Sequence record: MZ501067
Reading direction: 5' to 3' (one strand)
DNA from: Escherichia phage FriedrichZschokke
Length of the DNA: 64,000 bases
Position 1 is the first letter of the stretch, and each line of letters opens with the position of its first letter. The translations under genes and the position numbers were made by a program. The notes beneath the pieces were generated by a model, which did not search any database, was not told the origin of the DNA, and worked only from the letters and a program-made list of their open reading frames with translations. This document shows positions 5,101-59,400 of this stretch, piece after piece.

Positions 5101-5122
5101 ATAAGGGGCCGAAGCCCCTTGC
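5101..5122 (-). terminator. Hairpin / weak intrinsic terminator between regA and 43
   Basis: Minus RNA aaggggc-UUCG-gccccuu followed by AUUUGG. Confidence 0.45.
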
Positions 5123-5491
5123 TTAATTACCAATCGTATATTTAGGAACGAGTTTCCATTCATGTTTTTGTTTAAAAGAAATAACTCGGAAGTTATTAGT
5201 TAAATCTTTCATAAAAGTTCTTTGACCAGGAACAATTTCAATCAGTCCCCAATCTTCTAACAGCCATGCAATCGAATCACGACGAACTTCATCTTCTTCT
5301 GTCATTTCAACTTGGCGACCATCCATACGAAGCATTTCTTTAAAATGAACGATATAGTATAGTCCTTTTTTCTGAAGAATATGACAGGACTGATACAGAA
5401 CTTTATCTTTATTATTAGCAATTCCCATACGAGTCAAAGTTTCTTTTACTTTCAGAAAATCTTCAGGTTTTTTAAGAGTAATTTCAATCAT
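5123..5491 (-). CDS. regA: Translational repressor RegA
   Basis: 122 aa; position between 62 and 43; matches T4 RegA length and sequence as recalled. Confidence 0.9.
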   Translation of the reverse strand: MIEITLKKPEDFLKVKETLTRMGIANNKDKVLYQSCHILQKKGLYYIVHFKEMLRMDGRQVEMTEEDEVRRDSIAWLLEDWGLIEIVPGQRTFMKDLTNNFRVISFKQKHEWKLVPKYTIGN

Positions 5492-24295: not shown

Positions 24296-25310
24296 TTAGT
24301 GCATTTAGTGCGTTGTTCAATTTAGAACGTTGCTTCGTGAGATTTTTTACTTTTTCTTGAGCTTTTTCTAGCATCTTTTCAGCTTCTAACGCTTCATTAG
24401 TTGCTTTAACGAGTTCATCATCTACTGCCTTGATAGACTTCTCAATCGCATCCGCGTGCCATTTTTCAACAGGTTTAAGACTAGGATTTTCAACAGGAAG
24501 AAAATTCACTTTATTAAATTTCCATGCATCTTTATTACCTGAACTATACATCCAAAATTTAGGATCGTTTGATGAGCAATTAGATAAATTTAAGTTATCT
24601 TGTACTTCCTGCTTTTTCTCTTGCGTGACTTCGTCTTTTCTCAAAAAATCATATTTAAATGAAACGATCATATCAAGTTCATATGTTGTTGTATGTTCCC
24701 AATTTCGCTCAAAACGAGGTAAAATCTTAGATTGAACAGCAGCAACAACATCCATATACTTAAATGCTTCTGTCAGCTGTGATTTAAGACATTCACAAAT
24801 TGAACGAGAATTTTTAGTATTAGGTTTAAAGCTAATTCGTGCAGTTCTATTATTTTCTTTAGATGGTCTTACTTCCATTTGAAGAGTATAACCATCAAAT
24901 TTCAGATTCTTTAAGTTAATATCAGAGCCTTTTAATCGACTAGCAGTAGACAAAATTTGCTTTAATTGTTTACGAAATAGAGCAATAAATCTCCATTCAA
25001 TACGATAATGATTTGGATTAAAAAATCCTGTTGATAAATCAACCTTACTCTGACCAACGCCTTGAACAAATAGAGGATTTTTATAATCAATAGTTTTACA
25101 GAAATCGGTGAGCTGCTCACGAGCAGTCATTTGTGTAATATATCCCGCTTTACTAAAATGACGTAACCATTCACTGCTATTCATATACTTAAAGTGAATG
25201 GAACTATTAACTCTATCAGGGTCTAAATTATTTTGGTACAAAAATGTCATAACATTACGGGTATAGCTGGCATTACGAACCATATCTTCAATTTGAGAAC
25301 GAGTTTTCAT
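24291..25310 (-). CDS. Unknown-function protein with C-terminal coiled coil (C, 339 aa)
   Basis: N-terminal MKTRSQIEDM...; C-terminal ...EALEAEKMLEKAQEKVKNLTKQRSKLNNALNALN. Confidence 0.6.
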   Translation of the reverse strand: MKTRSQIEDMVRNASYTRNVMTFLYQNNLDPDRVNSSIHFKYMNSSEWLRHFSKAGYITQMTAREQLTDFCKTIDYKNPLFVQGVGQSKVDLSTGFFNPNHYRIEWRFIALFRKQLKQILSTASRLKGSDINLKNLKFDGYTLQMEVRPSKENNRTARISFKPNTKNSRSICECLKSQLTEAFKYMDVVAAVQSKILPRFERNWEHTTTYELDMIVSFKYDFLRKDEVTQEKKQEVQDNLNLSNCSSNDPKFWMYSSGNKDAWKFNKVNFLPVENPSLKPVEKWHADAIEKSIKAVDDELVKATNEALEAEKMLEKAQEKVKNLTKQRSKLNNALNALN

Positions 25311-27668: not shown

Positions 27669-28637
27669 TTATTTCAGAAGAGTAACCTCAGCAATTTCTT
27701 CCCAACCGTTTTTGTCGGTCATAATAAAGTCAGCAAGATAAAGAGCAGTACGCAGTGAAACATTACGTAAACGGTTAACATTGACTTTCATCCATGATAA
27801 TGCTTTATAAGTTTCTTCATCAGAAAGACCGCGTTTTTGCATCATGTCAGTTGAAAGAATAACATCTTCAACCCTGACCATAATTTCTTCATTAGTGTGA
27901 ACACCCAAATCCAAATAAACTGAGCGGGACACTAATGCTTGTAAATGTGGAGCAAGTTTAGTACCACGGTCTAATTCGCGGTCAATGTCAACGTTTGTGA
28001 TAAAAACAATCGTTCCTTTAAATTCAAACTCACGCTCAATGCCTTTTTCTTCTAAGTAAGAAGATGCGGTGCTCCAGCAGACTTTACGGGTCTCTCCAGT
28101 GTCCAGAGCGGCTTTTAGAAGATTAAGAATGTCCATATCAGAGAAAACATCCACATCATCAATCAAAAGGACATAATTCTCTTCACGATTATTCCAAAGC
28201 TGTTCATAAAGACCGATACCAGAGATTTTACCATTAATGCTTTTATATTCAATGTATCCAATATCATTTGCTTTATTTAAAGCTTTATCTAAAGAATACG
28301 TTTTACCAATACCCGCCGCACCAGAGATAATTAATGAACGAATGTTTCCGTTAATAATACCATTCGTCATCATTCCCATAACATTAAATCTTTTATTAAT
28401 GCGGGTTTTCATGTCTTCATACGATTCTTTAACTTCTTCAACTTTTACACCATCATATGAAATGTCTGATTTGTAAACCCAAACACCGCGACGCTTACCG
28501 TCAATTTCAACAAAAACTTTACCATCTCCTTGTGCATCTACCGGAGCATTATCTGGGAACCATTCGCCTAAGAGCTCAAAAGTTCCAGAGATTTCTTTAC
28601 CGAAGTAGATACCCTTATTGATAGTTACAGTTTTCAT
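27669..28637 (-). CDS. P-loop NTPase (AAA-like), unknown function
   Basis: 322 aa; Walker A GAAGIGKT and Walker B VLLIDDVD; ~100 aa N-terminal domain precedes the ATPase core. Confidence 0.65.
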   Translation of the reverse strand: MKTVTINKGIYFGKEISGTFELLGEWFPDNAPVDAQGDGKVFVEIDGKRRGVWVYKSDISYDGVKVEEVKESYEDMKTRINKRFNVMGMMTNGIINGNIRSLIISGAAGIGKTYSLDKALNKANDIGYIEYKSINGKISGIGLYEQLWNNREENYVLLIDDVDVFSDMDILNLLKAALDTGETRKVCWSTASSYLEEKGIEREFEFKGTIVFITNVDIDRELDRGTKLAPHLQALVSRSVYLDLGVHTNEEIMVRVEDVILSTDMMQKRGLSDEETYKALSWMKVNVNRLRNVSLRTALYLADFIMTDKNGWEEIAEVTLLK

Positions 28638-28895: not shown

Positions 28896-28926
28896 TTTGT
28901 ATCTCCAATTTACTCATTTGTTTTGA

Positions 28927-28970
28927 TAGTTGTATAGTACCATAAAGCTTTATGCTTGTAAACAGTTTTG
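28927..28970 (-). promoter_or_regulatory. Early promoter
   Basis: Minus strand: -35 TTTACA (28958-28963), 18 bp spacer, TGG-TACTAT -10. Confidence 0.5.
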
Positions 28971-28980
28971 TGAAAAATTT

Positions 28981-29011
28981 TTGAAATAAAAAAGGGAGCC
29001 CGAAGGCTCCC
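28981..29011 (-). terminator. Strong intrinsic terminator
   Basis: Minus RNA gggagcc-UUCG-ggcuccc followed by UUUUUUAUUU. Confidence 0.7.
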
Positions 29012-29013
29012 TA

Positions 29014-29562
29014 TCATTTATAATAACTTCGGTGGTTTTCAAGATAGACCTTCTCAAGGAAGTCATCCCAGAAACTCATGTCTACTGTTTTAGGCATACC
29101 GTTCTTAGAAGCTTCAGTAGATGCTGCTTCTACTTGATCGACCACATCTTCCAAAAACTCTTGAACTGTTTTAAATGGATGTTTACCCAACTTCACGTCG
29201 AGAATAAATGGAGCATCTTGAAGTGGATAGACTAAGTCACCAGTTTTGTAAATTTCCAATAGTTGGAGTCCACCACGACAAGCATGACTTAGTGCTTTCC
29301 AATCAATGCCTTCATTGGCTTCGGCCTTACGAGCACGTTCACCGTATTCAGCATCTAATTTGTTCAGTGACTGCTTAAGCTCAATAAGAGAAAGCGTTGT
29401 CTGATATTTACGACCCAACACAGTGTAGAACGTTTGTGGGCCTGTTTTCTCATGATTATGGAACACCCATTCACAGAATTCGTTTTCTGGAAGACGATGC
29501 TTAATATCTTCAACTTTAGTACGACGCTGCTTAATGGAACCGTCTTCTTGGTAATCAACCAT
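29014..29562 (-). CDS. Hypothetical protein (182 aa)
   Basis: ORF starting at the ATG embedded in the CAATG junction at 29560-29564; plausible globular sequence throughout. Confidence 0.55.
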   Translation of the reverse strand: MVDYQEDGSIKQRRTKVEDIKHRLPENEFCEWVFHNHEKTGPQTFYTVLGRKYQTTLSLIELKQSLNKLDAEYGERARKAEANEGIDWKALSHACRGGLQLLEIYKTGDLVYPLQDAPFILDVKLGKHPFKTVQEFLEDVVDQVEAASTEASKNGMPKTVDMSFWDDFLEKVYLENHRSYYK

Positions 29563-30026
29563 TGCTCAGGGATTTGATTAACTACTTTCAATACATCACG
29601 TAATGCAGCCAAACGAGAACCCTTGACGCCGTATTTAGAAGCTTGCTTGCGGACATATCCTAAATATGATTTCATGTTAGTCGTATAAAAACGAGAACGG
29701 TTGTCTTGAATAAACTTCCACACATCAGGCAAATCGGATTTAACCACTAGTTCAGGTGGAGTGTGAAGCATATCCAACGCTACAGTTTCACCATCTGCTG
29801 CTAATTTAAAGAAATATTTAAGACTGTATAGTTCATGGTCAATATCATCTTTAGTGTTTTTAGATGATGTATTGTTAGTATTTTTACTCATATGCTCTTT
29901 AACATTTCCGATAAGAATATCACGAGCAGGAGGAACAAAGATTTCTTTAAAATCTACATCAGATTCTGGGGTAGAAGTTCCATAAAGATGACTACCAAAA
30001 TAGCTTTTCATTACTGTTTTCATCAT
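29364..30026 (-). CDS. Nucleotidyltransferase-fold protein (Pol-beta superfamily), 3' end uncertain
   Basis: N-terminal GSHLYGTSTPESDVDF (GS...DxD NTase signature). The ORF runs 66 codons past a CAATG junction into low-complexity sequence overlapping the next gene; the native end is probably near 29562. Confidence 0.5.
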   Translation of the reverse strand: MMKTVMKSYFGSHLYGTSTPESDVDFKEIFVPPARDILIGNVKEHMSKNTNNTSSKNTKDDIDHELYSLKYFFKLAADGETVALDMLHTPPELVVKSDLPDVWKFIQDNRSRFYTTNMKSYLGYVRKQASKYGVKGSRLAALRDVLKVVNQIPEQWLITKKTVPLSSVVLKLKILSIVFQKTNSVNGCSIIMRKQAHKRSTLCWVVNIRQRFLLLSLSSH

Positions 30027-30484
30027 TCAGCCTTATATTCAATAACAGGACATACTTTAGCTTTACGAGCTTTTAAAAATTCAACGATAACCGATTTCTT
30101 GGGTTGAATAGGAGGTAAACCTTTATACGCCCTATCAATATTTTCTACGTGTAAAGCATAATCCTTTTTCCATTTATAATCTTTATATTTTTCACGCAAA
30201 TGTGCAGGAATAACAAATGAACCGATAATAAGTAAAACAACCAAAAGCGCAAGTATAAATGCTGATGGAAGCAAAGTCCATAAACTACCAAAAATAATCC
30301 AACGTTGTAGGCTTTCTGCACAAATAATTGTTAGCCCTACGAGTATAGCACATCCAAAAATAGAAACGAAAAATGTAGGAATGGCAATAGACCAAAAATA
30401 TGCGCACAGTGTCTTAGGTCGTTGCCATTCATCGTTAAACAATTTGAATAATTTATAGTGCCAAGAGTTTTCATTAATAATCAT
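30023..30484 (-). CDS. Membrane protein (153 aa)
   Basis: Two to three hydrophobic helices (FWSIAIPTFFVSIFGCAILVGLTIICA; LLPSAFILALLVVLLIIGSFVI). Confidence 0.55.
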   Translation of the reverse strand: MIINENSWHYKLFKLFNDEWQRPKTLCAYFWSIAIPTFFVSIFGCAILVGLTIICAESLQRWIIFGSLWTLLPSAFILALLVVLLIIGSFVIPAHLREKYKDYKWKKDYALHVENIDRAYKGLPPIQPKKSVIVEFLKARKAKVCPVIEYKAE

Positions 30485-45491: not shown

Positions 45492-45567
45492 TGGTCGAGG
45501 CAGTAGGGATCGAACCTACGACCCAGGACTTAGAAGGTCCTTGCTCTTCCTTCTGAGCTATGCCCCG
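45492..45567 (-). tRNA. tRNA-Arg (anticodon UCU)
   Basis: Hand-folded cloverleaf: 7 bp acceptor, T-loop UUCGAUC, anticodon loop CUUCUAA; CCA encoded. Confidence 0.85.
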
Positions 45568-45571
45568 TAAT

Positions 45572-45647
45572 TGGGGTGACCGATGGGAGTCGAACCCATG
45601 ACTACGAGAATCACAATCTCGAGTTCTACCAACTGAACTACGGCCAC
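45572..45647 (-). tRNA. tRNA-His (anticodon GUG)
   Basis: Hand-folded cloverleaf: anticodon loop UUGUGAU, discriminator C73, CCA encoded; no G at position -1 (U instead). Confidence 0.75.
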
Positions 45648-45761
45648 ATTAATACCTACTCCAACAATCAAGATGTCTTCACACGAAATTAAGAGAAGAG
45701 TGATCAGTTCAACCCCTATAATCGCGTCAAGTAGATATTAATGTGACAGTTGTCACAAATT

Positions 45762-45836
45762 TGGCGGACGTGATAGGATTCGAACCTATAACCAATCGCT
45801 TAACAGGCGATCGCTCTGCCATTGAGCTACACATCC
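45762..45836 (-). tRNA. tRNA-Asn (anticodon GUU)
   Basis: Hand-folded cloverleaf: anticodon loop CUGUUAA, T-loop UUCGAAU, CCA encoded. Confidence 0.8.
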
Positions 45837-45840
45837 AAAT

Positions 45841-45927
45841 TGGTGGGGAGTGGTGGAGTCGAACCACCCGAGTCGCAATGACAATGGATTTACAGTCCAC
45901 ACCGCTACCTCTACGGGATAACTCCCC
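45841..45927 (-). tRNA. tRNA-Tyr (anticodon GUA), long variable arm
   Basis: 87 nt; perfect acceptor GGGGAGU/ACUCCCC; anticodon loop CUGUAAA; variable region resembles E. coli tRNA-Tyr; CCA encoded. Confidence 0.8.
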
Positions 45928-45940
45928 TTAATTCTTAATT

Positions 45941-46015
45941 TGGTGGCCCTGGGTGGAATTGAACCACCATCTGGCGATTATGAGTCGCTTGCTTGAACCT
46001 TCCAGCTACAGGGCC
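45941..46015 (-). tRNA. tRNA-Ile (anticodon CAU, lysidine-type; Met not excluded)
   Basis: Anticodon stem-loop AGCGA-CUCAUAA-UCGCC closely resembles E. coli tRNA-Ile2; paired head-to-tail with tRNA-Thr as in the T4 Thr-Ile dimer. Confidence 0.75.
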
Positions 46016-46016
46016 T

Positions 46017-46092
46017 TGGTGCTGATTGACGGAATCGAACCGCCGACCTTCTCATTACAAGTGAGTTGCTCTACCTACTGAGCTAAATCAGC
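46017..46092 (-). tRNA. tRNA-Thr (anticodon UGU)
   Basis: Hand-folded cloverleaf: anticodon loop CUUGUAA; CCA encoded. Confidence 0.8.
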
Positions 46093-46097
46093 AAAAC

Positions 46098-46187
46098 TGG
46101 CGGAGGCGATAGGATTTGAACCTATGAGTCGCCGGAGCGACTGCCGGTTTTCAAGACCGGTGCATTAAACCACTCTGCCACGCCTCC
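46098..46187 (-). tRNA. tRNA-Ser (anticodon UGA), long variable arm
   Basis: 90 nt; anticodon stem-loop CCGGU-CUUGAAA-ACCGG; CCA encoded. Confidence 0.8.
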
Positions 46188-46189
46188 AG

Positions 46190-46263
46190 TCTCCATACAA
46201 GGATTTGAACCTTGGACCTCCTGATCCCAAATCAGGCGCTCTACCAAACTGAGCTACACGGAG
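46190..46263 (-). tRNA. tRNA-Pro (anticodon UGG)
   Basis: Anticodon loop UUUGGGA; CCA not encoded; 2 nt from tRNA-Ser (dimeric precursor arrangement). Confidence 0.8.
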
Positions 46264-46273
46264 TAAATTAAAT

Positions 46274-46347
<74 letters not shown>

Positions 46348-46352
46348 AAATT

Positions 46353-46439
46353 TGGTGCGAGAAGTGGGACTCGAACCCACAAGGAAATCATTCCGCAGCA
46401 TTTTAAGTGCTGTGCCTTTACCAATTTGACCATTCTCGC
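46353..46439 (-). tRNA. tRNA-Leu (anticodon UAA), long variable arm
   Basis: 87 nt; anticodon stem-loop CAGCA-CUUAAAA-UGCUG; CCA encoded; 1 nt from tRNA-Gln. Confidence 0.8.
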
Positions 46440-46440
46440 G

Positions 46441-46513
46441 CTGGGAATAAAGGACTCGAACCTTTGCATCCTGGAATCAAAATCCAGTGCCTTACCAACT
46501 TGGCTAATTCCCA
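46441..46513 (-). tRNA. tRNA-Gln (anticodon UUG)
   Basis: UGGGAAU acceptor; anticodon stem-loop CUGGA-UUUUGAU-UCCAG; resembles E. coli tRNA-Gln; CCA not encoded. Confidence 0.85.
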
Positions 46514-56444: not shown

Positions 56445-59400
56445 CAGTAAAAGCACCTTCAGTCACTAGTCTCAGAATTTCCAAGTTATCCGCAAATCAG
56501 GTGCAAGTACGCTGGGATGACGTTGGTGCTAATTTCTACTATTTTGTAGAAATCGCTGAGACAAAAACAAACTCGGGGGAAAATCTCCCGAGTAATCAAT
56601 ACAGATGGATTAACTTAGGATATACTGCAAATAACAGCTTCTTTTTTGATGATGCTGATCCATTGACATCATACATTATCAGAGTAGCTACAGCTGCGCA
56701 AGATTTTGAGCAGTCTGATTGGATTTATACCGAAGAGTTTGAAACTTTTGCTACAAATGCTTATACATTTCAAAACATGATTGAAATGCAATTAGCCAAT
56801 AAATTCATTCAGGAAAAATTTACTCTTAATAATTCTGATTATGTTAATTTTAATAATGACACTATAATGGCTGCATTGATGAATGAATCATTTCAATTCA
56901 GCCCATCGTATGTTGATGTTTCATCAATAAGTAATTTTATTATTGGTGAAAATGAGTATCATGAAATACAAGGTTCTATTCAGCAAGTATGTAAGGATAT
57001 TAACCGAGTTTATTTGATGGAATCAGAAGGAATTCTATATCTTTTTGAGCGCTATCAACCTGTAGTTAAAGTATCCAATGATAAAGGACAAACTTGGAAA
57101 GCTGTAAAGCTCTTCAATGACCGTGTAGGATATCCTTTATCTAAGACAGTATATTACCAATCTGCGAACACAACATACGTTCTAGGATACGACAAGATTT
57201 TCTATGGCCGCAAATCTACTGATGTTAGATGGTCAGCTGATGATGTCAGATTTAGTTCACAGGATATAACATTCGCTAAACTTGGTGACCAATTGCATCT
57301 AGGATTTGATGTAGAAATTTTTGCCACTTATGCGACTTTACCAGCGAATGTATACCGCATTGCAGAAGCTATTACTTGCACCGATGATTACATTTACGTT
57401 GTCGCCAGAGACAAAGTTAGATACATAAAAACGAGTAATGCACCTATAGATTCTGATCCATTATCTCCAACATATTCGGAAAGACTTTTTGAACCTGATA
57501 CCATGACTATAACTGGAAATCCTAAAGCAGTATGCTATAAAATGGATTCTATCGGTGATAAAGTTTTTGCTCTTATTATTGGTGAAGTTGAAACATTGAA
57601 TGCTAATCCGAGAACATCAAAAATAATTGATTCTGCTGATAAAGGAATATATGTTTTAAATCATGATGAAAAAACATGGAAAAGAGTTTTTGGTAATACC
57701 GAAGAAGAAAGAAGACGTATTCAACCCGGATATGCGAATATGTCAACTGACGGTAAATTAGTTTCTCTGTCTTCGAGTAATTTTAAATTTTTAAGTGATA
57801 ATGTTGTTAATGACCCTGAAACTGCAGCAAAATATCAGTTAATTGGTGCTGTCAAATATGAATTTCCTCGTGAATGGTTAGCTGATAAGCATTATCATAT
57901 GATGGCATTTATAGCAGATGAAAAGTCTGATTGGGAAACTTTTACTCCTCAGCCGATGAAATACTATGCAGAACCATTCTTTAACTGGTCTAAAAAATCT
58001 AACACACGTTGTTGGATAAACAACTCTGATAGGGTTGTAGTAGTTTATGCTGATTTAAAATACACTAAAGTTATAGAAAATATTCCGGAAACATCACCAG
58101 ATAGATTAGTTCATGAATACTGGGATGATGGCGATTGCACTATAGTAATGCCAAATGTTAAATTCACTGGATTTAAAAAATATGCATCTGGGATGCTTTT
58201 CTATAAAGCCTCTGGTGAAATAATTTCTTACTATGATTTTAACTATCGCGTGAGAGATACAGTAGAAATTATTTGGAAGCCAACTGAAGTATTTTTAAAA
58301 GCATTTTTACAAAACCAAGAGCATGAGACTCCTTGGTCACCAGAAGAAGAGCGTGGATTAGCTGACCCTGATTTAAGACCATTAATTGGCACAATGATGC
58401 CTGATTCTTATTTGTTACAGGATTCGAATTTTGAAGCATTTTGCGAAGCATATATTCAATATCTTTCTGATGGATATGGAACTCAGTATAACAATTTACG
58501 AAATTTAATTCGTAACCAATATCCACGAGAAGAGCATGCATGGGAATATTTGTGGTCAGAGATATATAAAAGAAACATTTATTTAAATGCTGACAAACGC
58601 GATGCTGTTGCGAGATTCTTTGAATCACGTAGCTATGATTTTTATTCTACTAAAGGAATTGAAGCATCATACAAATTTCTTTTTAAAGTTCTTTATAATG
58701 AAGAGGTTGAAATTGAAATTGAATCTGGGGCTGGTACTGAATATGATATAATCGTTCAATCTGATTCTTTGACTGAAGACTTAGTAGGACAAACGATTTA
58801 TACAGCTACAGGAAGATGTAATGTTACTTATATAGAAAGAAGCTATTCTAATGGTAAATTGCAATGGACCGTAACTATTCATAATCTTTTGGGACGATTA
58901 ATTGCTGGTCAAGAAGTTAAAGCAGAAAGACTTCCTAGTTTTGAAGGCGAAATTATTCGTGGAGTTAAAGGAAAGGATTTGCTTCAAAATAATATAGACT
59001 ATATTAATAGAAGTCGATCATATTATGTAATGAAAATTAAATCCAATTTACCTTCTTCTCGTTGGAAATCTGACGTTATTCGTTTTGTTCATCCAGTAGG
59101 ATTTGGATTTATAGCAATTACCCTTTTAACGATGTTTATTAATGTTGGTTTAACTCTTAAACACACAGAGACTATAATTAATAAATACAAAAACTATAAA
59201 TGGGATTCTGGATTGCCTACTGAATATGCTGATAGAGTAGCTAAATTGACTCCAACTGGTGAAATTGAGCATGATTCGGTAACAGGCGAAGCAATTTATG
59301 AGCCTGGCCCAATGGCTGGTGTAGAATATCCTCTTCCTGATGACTATAATGCTGAAAATAATAATTCAATATTTCAAGGTCAATTGCCGTCTGAACGACG

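What the first reader, a model, noticed from the sequence alone, without database searches (positions are those of the whole stretch)
29364..30026. Nucleotidyltransferase-fold gene whose stop codon appears lost at a CAATG junction
The ORF starts with a Pol-beta-type NTase signature (GSHLYGTSTPESDVDF). After ~154 codons it reaches CAATG at 29560-29564, where the ATG begins the next gene. T-even junctions are typically TAATG; here CAA replaces TAA, so the frame runs 66 codons further into low-complexity sequence. That is either a stop-loss variant, a base-call error, or a real extension. A small NTase in this accessory region is a plausible anti-defence or nucleotide-signalling candidate.
Basis: partly seen in the sequence, partly recalled or inferred. 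Interest (0 to 1): 0.6.

Follow-up and report, generated by a model that had tools for sequence, protein, structure and literature searches.

The report
Frameshifted copy of T4 nrdC.11 nucleotidyltransferase
The odd "CAATG junction" is not a lost stop codon: it lies inside one well-known T4-type gene (nrdC.11, an RNA-end nucleotidyltransferase) that has lost a single G in this phage, so the gene reads as two overlapping pieces, which is an ordinary inactivating frameshift.

Summary
The sequence facts are right. There is a minus-strand ORF at 29364..30026 (220 aa) with a Pol-beta nucleotidyltransferase motif. CAATG sits at 29560-29564, and its ATG opens a 182-aa ORF (29014..29562).

The stop-loss reading is wrong. 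T4 and three close relatives aligned or read at the site carry one 336-337-aa gene here (T4 nrdC.11) that reads CAA-TGG-GTT. CAA (Gln154 in the 336-aa numbering) is the ancestral codon, and there was never a TAA.

The window has GG where relatives have GGG (plus-strand CC at 29559-29560). This is a 1-nt deletion. After Trp155 (336-aa numbering) it adds 64 out-of-frame codons and puts a chance ATG in frame with the C-terminal half.

The two ORFs match the two halves of one family (phrog_388). The N-terminal half hits Pfam RlaP (PF10127).

The 220-aa product is identical to QXV79201.1 of Escherichia phage FriedrichZschokke (Bas41), an Illumina assembly at typically 50-100x. No identical copy of the deletion allele turned up among 488 matching phage records, in IMG/VR, or in the protein cluster. 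It is the only uncompensated frameshift inside an annotated gene across the 64 kb.

The deletion is most likely real and recent, and it inactivates a gene that can be deleted from T4. An assembly error remains possible. Nothing supports recoding. Interest is low.

The parts
29014..30026 (-). Whole disrupted gene: ortholog of T4 nrdC.11 (RlaP-family nucleotidyltransferase). It is 1010-1013 nt here against 1011-1014 nt intact in relatives.
   Evidence: The 1201-nt region matches JLBYU31 at 99.9%; within the gene the missing G is the only difference from JLBYU31. In JLBYU31, R5505, FriedrichMiescher and T4 the region is annotated as one CDS of 336-337 aa. phrog_388 covers ORF1 (profile positions 35-179) and ORF2 (182-339).
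29559..29560 (.). Site of the 1-nt deletion: CC on the plus strand (GG on the coding strand), where relatives have CCC/GGG (codons TGG-GTT, Trp155-Val156 in the 336-aa numbering).
   Evidence: Alignment A1 column 472; blast indel list, window 29559; T4 reads CAATGGGTTGAT.
29560..29564 (-). The CAATG pentamer: CAA is Gln154 (336-aa numbering; ancestral, not a mutated stop). The ATG is the A of CAA plus the TG of TGG, a chance out-of-frame ATG in the intact gene.
29559..30026 (-). Native N-terminal part, 156 codons counted from the first ATG: NTase core plus the long helix.
   Evidence: 154 of 155 residues identical to P0001. Pfam RlaP hit over residues 7-137. In the AF2 model the core spans residues 1-112 and the helix 118-149.
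29979..29996 (-). GSHLYG: the G-S motif of Pol-beta NTases.
   Evidence: G10 and S11 are invariant in 69 family members; coordinates.
29949..29963 (-). SDVDF: the catalytic DxD carboxylates.
   Evidence: S21, D22 and D24 are invariant; coordinates.
29763..29780 (-). ALDMLH: the presumed third catalytic Asp.
   Evidence: D84 is conserved in at least 90% of members. The RlaP preprint reports three strictly conserved Asp (PMC12776372). Coordinates.
29364..29558 (-). Out-of-frame tail: 64 missense codons (LITKKTVPLSS...LSSH) plus the TGA stop.
   Evidence: The same frame is open but unused in T4 and the close relatives.
29014..29562 (-). ORF2, 182 aa: Met followed by native residues 156-336 (beta subdomain and C-terminal helical domain). 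The deletion puts it in frame with the chance ATG.
   Evidence: 177 of 181 residues identical to P0001. It matches phrog_388 positions 182-339. Its Shine-Dalgarno pairing is -1.5 kcal/mol against a gene median of -5.9, like a random internal ATG. It holds the invariant residues R230, K243, H247, R250, P267 and K278.
28993..29012 (-). Intrinsic terminator hairpin (AGGGAGCCTTCGGGCTCCCT followed by a T run) directly after the natural nrdC.11 stop.
   Evidence: The same element is annotated as a terminator in R5505.

Best explanation
The window comes from Escherichia phage FriedrichZschokke (Bas41). The region 29014..30026 (minus strand) is its ortholog of T4 nrdC.11, normally a single 336-aa RlaP-family (PF10127) Pol-beta nucleotidyltransferase.

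One G of a GGG run (codons Trp155-Val156) is missing. Translation from the normal start gives the NTase core and long helix (155 native residues), then 64 nonsense residues and a stop. [quoted passage not shown] It also lacks six of the family's 14 invariant residues (R230, K243, H247, R250, P267, K278). In the solved RlaP enzyme, the two domains form the RNA/NTP cleft between them. The enzyme is therefore most likely inactivated (inferred).

The ATG in CAATG is a chance ATG that the deletion brings into frame. It has no convincing ribosome-binding site, so the C-terminal half is probably made poorly or not at all (inferred).

The deletion is most likely a real, recent slippage mutation in the sequenced stock. 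It is tolerated because nrdC.11 is dispensable on laboratory hosts.

By family inference, the intact protein adds one or two nucleotides to the 3'-OH of damaged RNA (tRNA). This would help T4's RNA-repair enzymes restore tRNAs from which a host anticodon nuclease has removed a nucleotide.
For: Shown:
- One G is missing relative to JLBYU31, R5505, FriedrichMiescher and T4.
- Relatives annotate one CDS of 336-337 aa.
- The listed relatives at 78% identity or more are nearly all 324-343 aa long. Cluster representatives at 36-57% identity mostly match full length in one stretch; 818 have E<=1e-30.
- ORF1 and ORF2 hit consecutive halves of phrog_388.
- Pfam RlaP: 41.9 bits for ORF1 and 43.8 bits for the intact relative, against a cut-off of 23.
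- Catalytic GS, DxD and D84 lie in the N-terminal half; R230, K243, H247, R250, P267 and K278 lie downstream of the frameshift.
- The AF2 model has pLDDT 94. Residue 155 sits at the boundary between helix 118-149 and the beta subdomain 154-208.
- The 220-aa product is identical to QXV79201.1, bas41_0212.

For a real mutation:
- BASEL phages were sequenced on an Illumina NextSeq at typically 50-100x.
- Against R5505, this is the only uncompensated frameshifting indel inside an annotated CDS across the whole 64 kb. The other indels are intergenic, compensated, or multiples of three.

For tolerance:
- T4 mutants deleted for nrdC.11-mobD.3 are viable (PMC9825161).
- An independent 1-nt deletion (A5 to A4) splits the same gene in phage slur07. 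Another contig carries 130-aa and 199-aa halves.

For recency:
- Apart from the missing G, the gene is identical to JLBYU31.

For function:
- RlaP enzymes add 1-2 NMP to RNA 3'-OH and are needed to restore over-damaged tRNA. T4 NrdC.11 is placed in RlaP cluster 5 (PMC12776372).
Against: - No reads were available, so a consensus or assembly error in the deposited genome cannot be excluded.
- No identical copy of the allele was found: no match at 99% identity or better among 488 matching phage records, none in IMG/VR, and no other 220-aa form in the N-terminal-fragment cluster. This fits a private recent mutation and an error equally well.
- Loss of function is inferred from the domain architecture, not measured. 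The two halves could in principle reassemble if ORF2 is translated.
- The biochemical role of T4 NrdC.11 itself has never been tested. The RlaP data come from Pseudomonas enzymes in another subcluster, reported in a preprint.
- The Pfam model covers only the N-terminal part of the T4-type protein (profile positions 23-144 of 249).
Confidence: 0.75

Rival explanations
1. Sequencing or assembly artefact: the phage really has GGG and an intact nrdC.11, and the deposited consensus dropped one base in the short homopolymer.
For: No identical copy of the allele was found anywhere: 86/87 is the best match among 488 matching records, there are no IMG/VR hits, and no other 220-aa form appears in the N-terminal-fragment cluster. 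The rest of the gene is identical to JLBYU31, so there is no sign of decay. Indels in homopolymers are the classic consensus error.
Against: The platform was Illumina NextSeq at typically 50-100x, where consensus indels in a 3-base run are rare. The assembly shows no other frameshift inside an annotated CDS across 64 kb against R5505, so it is not error-prone in general. Independent frameshifts of the same dispensable gene occur in other isolates.
Confidence: 0.2
2. A functional split or recoded gene. Either a -1 ribosomal frameshift after TGG restores the full protein, or the two halves (the N-terminal NTase and ORF2 from the new ATG) are made separately and assemble into an active enzyme.
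For: A -1 slip right after TGG would restore the exact wild-type sequence. The deletion happens to create an in-frame ATG one codon before native Val156. The break falls at a domain boundary in the model.
Against: There is no X_XXY_YYZ heptamer and no long homopolymer in the frame overlap. Local RNA folding is no better than for shuffled sequence (z = -0.24). The ORF2 ATG has Shine-Dalgarno pairing of -1.5 kcal/mol, like random internal ATGs (median -0.9), and weaker than 92% of gene starts. No relative was found to share the arrangement. ORF1 would also carry a 64-residue nonsense tail.
Confidence: 0.04
3. One reading: two adjacent genes joined at a TAATG overlap whose TAA mutated to CAA (stop-loss), or a genuine C-terminal extension.
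For: ATGA/TAATG overlaps are common in T-even phages; this gene's own start overlaps the upstream stop. One metagenomic fragment, P0127, ends at ...NQIPE. That could be a separate CAA-to-TAA nonsense allele, but it could not be checked.
Against: T4 and the three close relatives aligned at the site have CAA here inside one continuous 336-337-aa ORF. In those genomes the ATG is out of frame and runs into TGA after two codons (ATG GGT TGA). The tail is the unused off-frame of a conserved domain.
Confidence: 0.005

Closest known systems
Phage T4 NrdC.11 (NP_049709.1; 'uncharacterized 38.9 kDa protein in nrdC-mobD intergenic region')
   Same: Same position, downstream of a small membrane-protein gene and upstream of nrdC.10 with a terminator between. 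Same length once the missing G is restored. T4 has the same CAATGGGTTGAT context. Both belong to Pfam RlaP.
   Different: The window's copy lacks one G and is split into overlapping 220-aa and 182-aa ORFs.
RlaP nucleotidyltransferases PfRlaP and PaRlaP (PF10127; preprint PMC12776372)
   Same: Both pass the Pfam family threshold, have three conserved acidic catalytic residues, and combine an N-terminal NTase domain with a C-terminal helical domain. The preprint places T4 NrdC.11 in the family as cluster 5.
   Different: The T4-type protein is in a different subcluster. It has an extra beta subdomain (residues ~154-208). The Pfam model covers only its N-terminal part. It is not next to an RNA ligase gene, and its activity is untested. 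No solved structure was detectable by sequence.
nrdC.11 frameshift allele of Escherichia phage slur07 (LN881732.1)
   Same: A 1-nt deletion in a short homopolymer of the same gene gives two ORFs annotated as hypothetical proteins.
   Different: It is a different site (A5 to A4 near nt 159-163, giving 73-aa and 252-aa ORFs) and an independent event.
Solved Pol-beta NTases with helical C-terminal domains: Hailong HalB (9dbh), 3c18, kanamycin NTase (1kny/6nlt)
   Different: Sequence identity is only 8-17% and whole-chain TM-scores are low. The substrates differ (dATP oligomerisation, aminoglycosides). This is a fold-level resemblance only.
Programmed -1 ribosomal frameshifting (for example E. coli dnaX)
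   Same: Two overlapping ORFs sit in the 0 and -1 frames.
   Different: There is no slippery heptamer, no stimulatory structure and no conservation of the arrangement.

Membership tests
Pfam PF10127 RlaP (RNA-ligase-associated Pol-beta NTase) | Score above the Pfam gathering threshold | tested here: met
   41.9 bits for window ORF1 and 43.8 bits for the intact relative, against a cut-off of 23.
Pfam PF10127 RlaP (RNA-ligase-associated Pol-beta NTase) | G-S motif and three conserved catalytic Asp | tested here: met
   G10, S11, D22 and D24 are invariant and D84 is conserved in at least 90% of 69 homologs. All are present in the window at 29979-29996, 29949-29963 and 29763-29780.
Pfam PF10127 RlaP (RNA-ligase-associated Pol-beta NTase) | One polypeptide with an N-terminal NTase domain and a C-terminal helical domain forming the substrate cleft (PMC12776372) | tested here: not met
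   The intact relative P0001 models this way (pLDDT 94). In the window the C-terminal 181 residues are out of frame after Trp155 (336-aa numbering). The window's copy is therefore a disrupted member.
Pfam PF10127 RlaP (RNA-ligase-associated Pol-beta NTase) | Gene adjacent to an RNA ligase or RNA-repair operon | tested here: not met
   The neighbours are a small membrane protein, nrdC.10 (an AAA ATPase) and small unnamed ORFs. T4's pnk and RNA ligase genes lie elsewhere in the genome (my own knowledge of the T4 map).
Pfam PF10127 RlaP (RNA-ligase-associated Pol-beta NTase) | Adds 1-2 NMP to the RNA 3'-OH | not testable with these tools
   This needs an enzyme assay. It is known only for the Pseudomonas enzymes.
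T4 nrdC.11 ortholog group | High identity over the full length and conserved synteny | tested here: met
   154/155 and 177/181 residues are identical to P0001. Gene order matches T4, R5505 and JLBYU31.
Programmed -1 ribosomal frameshift site | Slippery X_XXY_YYZ heptamer in the overlap | tested here: not met
   None found.
Programmed -1 ribosomal frameshift site | Downstream stimulatory RNA structure | tested here: not met
   Folding z-score is -0.24 against shuffles.
Programmed -1 ribosomal frameshift site | Two-frame arrangement conserved in relatives | tested here: not met
   Relatives have one frame. No identical copy of the deletion allele was found among 488 matching records or in IMG/VR.
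TAATG stop/start gene junction | Relatives carry a stop codon at this position with two separately conserved genes | tested here: not met
   CAA lies within one ORF in T4 and three close relatives. One family profile spans both halves.

The most novel reading that the evidence does not exclude
The frameshift is adaptive rather than neutral. Loss (or splitting) of NrdC.11 would remove a protein or an RNA-end modification that host abortive-infection systems sense. This could contribute to the published oddity that Bas41, unlike its T-even relatives, is only weakly sensitive to the P2 Tin and Fun/Z systems (bioRxiv 10.1101/2021.03.08.434280). Nothing here links the two observations beyond their occurring in the same phage. 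Bas41 also differs from its nearest relatives at about 2% of positions elsewhere.
Probability: 0.03. Interest if true: 0.55.

Novelty: already known. Interest (0 to 1): 0.12.

Why it matters
It matters little as biology. The finding is a one-base frameshift in a dispensable, already catalogued T-even accessory gene, in a genome that is already public.

It has three practical uses:
- It corrects an annotation. bas41_0212 is the front half of nrdC.11 plus a nonsense tail, not a 220-aa protein.
- Bas41 and slur07 are natural nrdC.11-null candidates. They could be used to test the recently proposed RNA-repair role of RlaP enzymes against nucleotide-excising anticodon nucleases.
- It shows that a CAATG followed by a long ORF in a T-even genome is not evidence of a gene junction unless relatives are checked.

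Tried and rejected
- Stop-loss at a TAATG junction: rejected. Relatives have CAA inside one ORF.
- Genuine C-terminal extension or an overlapping gene in the tail frame: rejected. The tail frame is open in relatives but is only the off-frame of a conserved domain. Its length (top ~1% of simulated deletions) is noted as chance.
- Programmed -1 frameshift or transcriptional slippage: rejected. There is no heptamer, no homopolymer run and no structure.
- ORF2 as a bona fide gene with its own ribosome-binding site: rejected. Its Shine-Dalgarno pairing is like that of random internal ATGs, and the exact ORF2 product is in no database.
- Error-prone assembly: not supported. There are no other frameshifts in annotated CDSs across 64 kb against R5505.
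- Sequence search of the PDB with the protein and with a 69-sequence profile: nothing significant. The solved PfRlaP structure was not detectable.
- NCBIfam: only a sub-threshold MntA hit over the GS-DxD motif.
The possible CAA-to-TAA nonsense allele could not be verified.
- Literature search for Bas41 or nrdC.11 function: no experimental work on T4 NrdC.11 beyond its dispensability and its family placement.
- A quasi-palindrome around the site (11-bp RNA stem) was considered as a mutational template. It relies on G-U pairs and is weak as DNA, so it was not pursued.

Full report
**1. What is in the sequence**

On the minus strand there is an ORF at 29364..30026 (220 aa). It begins MMKTVMKSYFGSHLYGTSTPESDVDF. 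A second ORF at 29014..29562 (182 aa) overlaps it in the -1 frame. The coding-strand pentamer CAATG lies at plus coordinates 29560-29564, and its ATG is the start of the second ORF. The codon counts are slightly off: there are 156 native codons from the first ATG (155 from the second, which relatives use) and 64 tail codons.

**2. What the junction really is**

A megablast of 28900-30100 found 579 T4-like (Tequatrovirus) phage records. The best matches are 1202-1203 nt long against the query's 1201 nt.

In JLBYU31, R5505 and FriedrichMiescher the region is annotated as one CDS of 336-337 aa. In T4 itself it is gene nrdC.11, annotated 'nucleotidyltransferase'.

The alignment shows a single difference that matters. 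Relatives read GAG CAA TGG GTT GAT TAC, while the window reads GAG CAA TGG TTG ATT AC. One G of a GGG run is missing, which is plus-strand CC at 29559-29560. T4 also has GGG.

CAA is therefore the ancestral Gln154 codon (336-aa numbering) inside a gene, not a mutated TAA. In the intact gene the ATG is out of frame and hits TGA after two codons. The deletion both shifts the upstream frame into a 64-codon open off-frame and brings that chance ATG into frame with the C-terminal half.

One phage protein family, phrog_388, matches ORF1 at profile positions 35-179 and ORF2 at positions 182-339. The intact relative matches end to end at E = 1.7e-137.

**3. Where the window comes from, and how common the allele is**

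The 220-aa product, nonsense tail included, is identical to QXV79201.1, 'hypothetical protein bas41_0212' of Escherichia phage FriedrichZschokke (Bas41, BASEL collection). The 182-aa ORF2 product is in no database.

- An 86-nt query across the site found 488 matching phage records, none at 99% identity or better. The best matches are 86/87, differing only by the gap.
- The exact deletion-allele 25-mer has no hit in IMG/VR. The wild-type 26-mer has one.
- In the cluster of N-terminal fragments, no other sequence has the 220-aa form.

No identical copy of the allele was found outside Bas41.

**4. Real mutation or artefact?**

BASEL genomes were sequenced on an Illumina NextSeq 550 at typically 50-100x and assembled in Geneious. 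I aligned all 64 kb to R5505 (97.6-99.2% identity over the long aligned blocks, which cover most of the window). Every other indel is intergenic, locally compensated, or a multiple of three. The nrdC.11 deletion is the only uncompensated frameshift inside an annotated CDS. The assembly is therefore not generally indel-prone.

Apart from the missing G, the gene is identical to JLBYU31. The lesion is either very recent or an error.

The gene can be lost:
- T4 mutants lacking nrdC.11-mobD.3 are viable (PMC9825161).
- Phage slur07 carries an independent 1-nt deletion (A5 to A4) that splits the same gene into 73-aa and 252-aa ORFs.
- Another ~169-kb contig has 130-aa and 199-aa halves.

I put a real mutation at about 0.75 and a consensus error at about 0.2. 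Only the reads or resequencing can settle it.

**5. No recoding**

The shift needed to restore the protein is -1.
- The ORF2 frame opens only one codon before the ATG.
- The overlap has no X_XXY_YYZ heptamer and no homopolymer long enough for transcriptional slippage.
- The local RNA folds no better than shuffled sequence (z = -0.24).
- The ORF2 ATG has Shine-Dalgarno pairing of -1.5 kcal/mol. That is like random internal ATGs (median -0.9) and weaker than 92% of gene starts in the window (median -5.9).

**6. What the intact gene is**

Pfam places the N-terminal half in RlaP (PF10127): 41.9 bits for ORF1 and 43.8 bits for the intact relative, against a cut-off of 23.

The listed close relatives (78% identity or more) are nearly all 324-343 aa long. 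In a library clustered at 50% identity there are 3322 hits, 818 of them at E<=1e-30. The best are 300-360 aa and mostly match the query end to end in one stretch.

In an alignment of 69 homologs at 34-55% identity to P0001:
- The invariant residues are G10, S11, S21, D22, D24, N56, D62, Y131, R230, K243, H247, R250, P267 and K278.
- D84 is nearly invariant.
- Six invariant residues lie downstream of the frameshift.

The AlphaFold2 model of P0001 has pLDDT 94 and pTM 0.82. It shows an NTase core (residues 1-112), a long helix (118-149), a beta subdomain (154-208) and a helical domain (213-335). Residue 155 is at the boundary after the long helix.

A 2025 preprint (PMC12776372) reports the following:
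- Pseudomonas RlaP enzymes add one or two NMPs to RNA 3'-OH ends.
- They prefer damaged RNA as substrate.
- They are needed to restore aminoacylation of tRNA that has lost a nucleotide.
- They have an N-terminal NTase domain and a C-terminal helical domain that form the substrate cleft.

The preprint places T4 NrdC.11 in RlaP cluster 5.

From this I infer that intact NrdC.11 fills in nucleotides on cleaved tRNA before T4's Pnk and RNA ligase reseal it. This would counter 'smart' anticodon nucleases such as RloC. I also infer that the Bas41 product, which lacks the C-terminal domains, is inactive. Neither step has been tested for the T4 protein.

**7. Comparison with what is known, and novelty**

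The gene is a known, named T4 gene and a member of a known Pfam family. The allele already sits in GenBank, annotated as a hypothetical protein. The window's copy fails the family's single-polypeptide, two-domain architecture only because of the frameshift.

Nothing here is a new kind of element. The one speculative thread is that Bas41 was singled out for weak sensitivity to the P2 Tin and Fun/Z abortive-infection systems. I found nothing connecting that to nrdC.11 and give it about 3%.

**8. Verdict**

The coordinates, motif and CAATG are right, but no stop codon was lost. It is an NTase and something is wrong at this spot, but the cause is a 1-nt deletion and not a stop-loss. The finding is an ordinary frameshifted accessory gene, and interest is low.

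Noticed in passing
L008 (Escherichia phage slur07, LN881732.1) 484-1493: An independent 1-nt deletion (A5 to A4 at about nt 159-163 of nrdC.11) splits the same gene into 73-aa and 252-aa ORFs, both annotated as hypothetical proteins. Other split or truncated copies exist: 130-aa and 199-aa halves on a 168,860-bp contig labelled E. coli, and 81-aa C-terminal fragments in pSs-1 and fPS-65.
   Followed up: partly
That would fit a CAA-to-TAA nonsense allele (a true TAATG) in some uncultured T-even phage. The contigs could not be fetched.
   Followed up: no
window ~5121-5123: The window lacks the 222-bp CDS R5505_00051 (a hypothetical protein between the DNA polymerase gene and the translation-repressor gene) that is present in R5505.
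   Followed up: no
window 23899, 24582-24585, 49006, 58035-58037: In-frame indels relative to R5505: 3 nt and 6 nt in two of the nrdC.x-region ORFs of unknown function, a 12-nt deletion in the dNMP kinase gene, and 3 nt in a baseplate wedge gene.
   Followed up: no
window 45492-46513, minus strand: A cluster of 11 tRNA genes (Arg, His, Asn, Tyr, Met, Thr, Ser, Pro, Gly, Leu, Gln), the same set as annotated in R5505.
   Followed up: no
window 29367-29558, minus strand (and the same stretch in T4, JLBYU31, R5505 and FriedrichMiescher): The off-frame entered after the deletion is open for 64 codons in all relatives checked. Only 0.9% of simulated 1-nt deletions in the window's genes give 66 or more open codons. 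This is probably chance. It was not tested in distant relatives.
   Followed up: partly
window 27669-28637, minus strand: The nrdC.10 ortholog (322 aa) gives only sub-threshold AAA/STAND-type NTPase Pfam hits. It lies downstream of nrdC.11, separated by a terminator and a 66-aa ORF.
   Followed up: no
GenBank annotations of relatives: Many records label nrdC.11 and other nrdC.x genes 'thioredoxin', apparently carried over from the name of nrdC. One record calls it an HNH homing endonuclease. These names do not agree with the Pfam and PHROG assignments.
   Followed up: no
whole phage (Bas41); bioRxiv 10.1101/2021.03.08.434280: Bas41 is reported to be only weakly sensitive to the P2 Tin and Fun/Z abortive-infection systems that strongly block its T-even relatives. 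The cause is unknown.
   Followed up: partly
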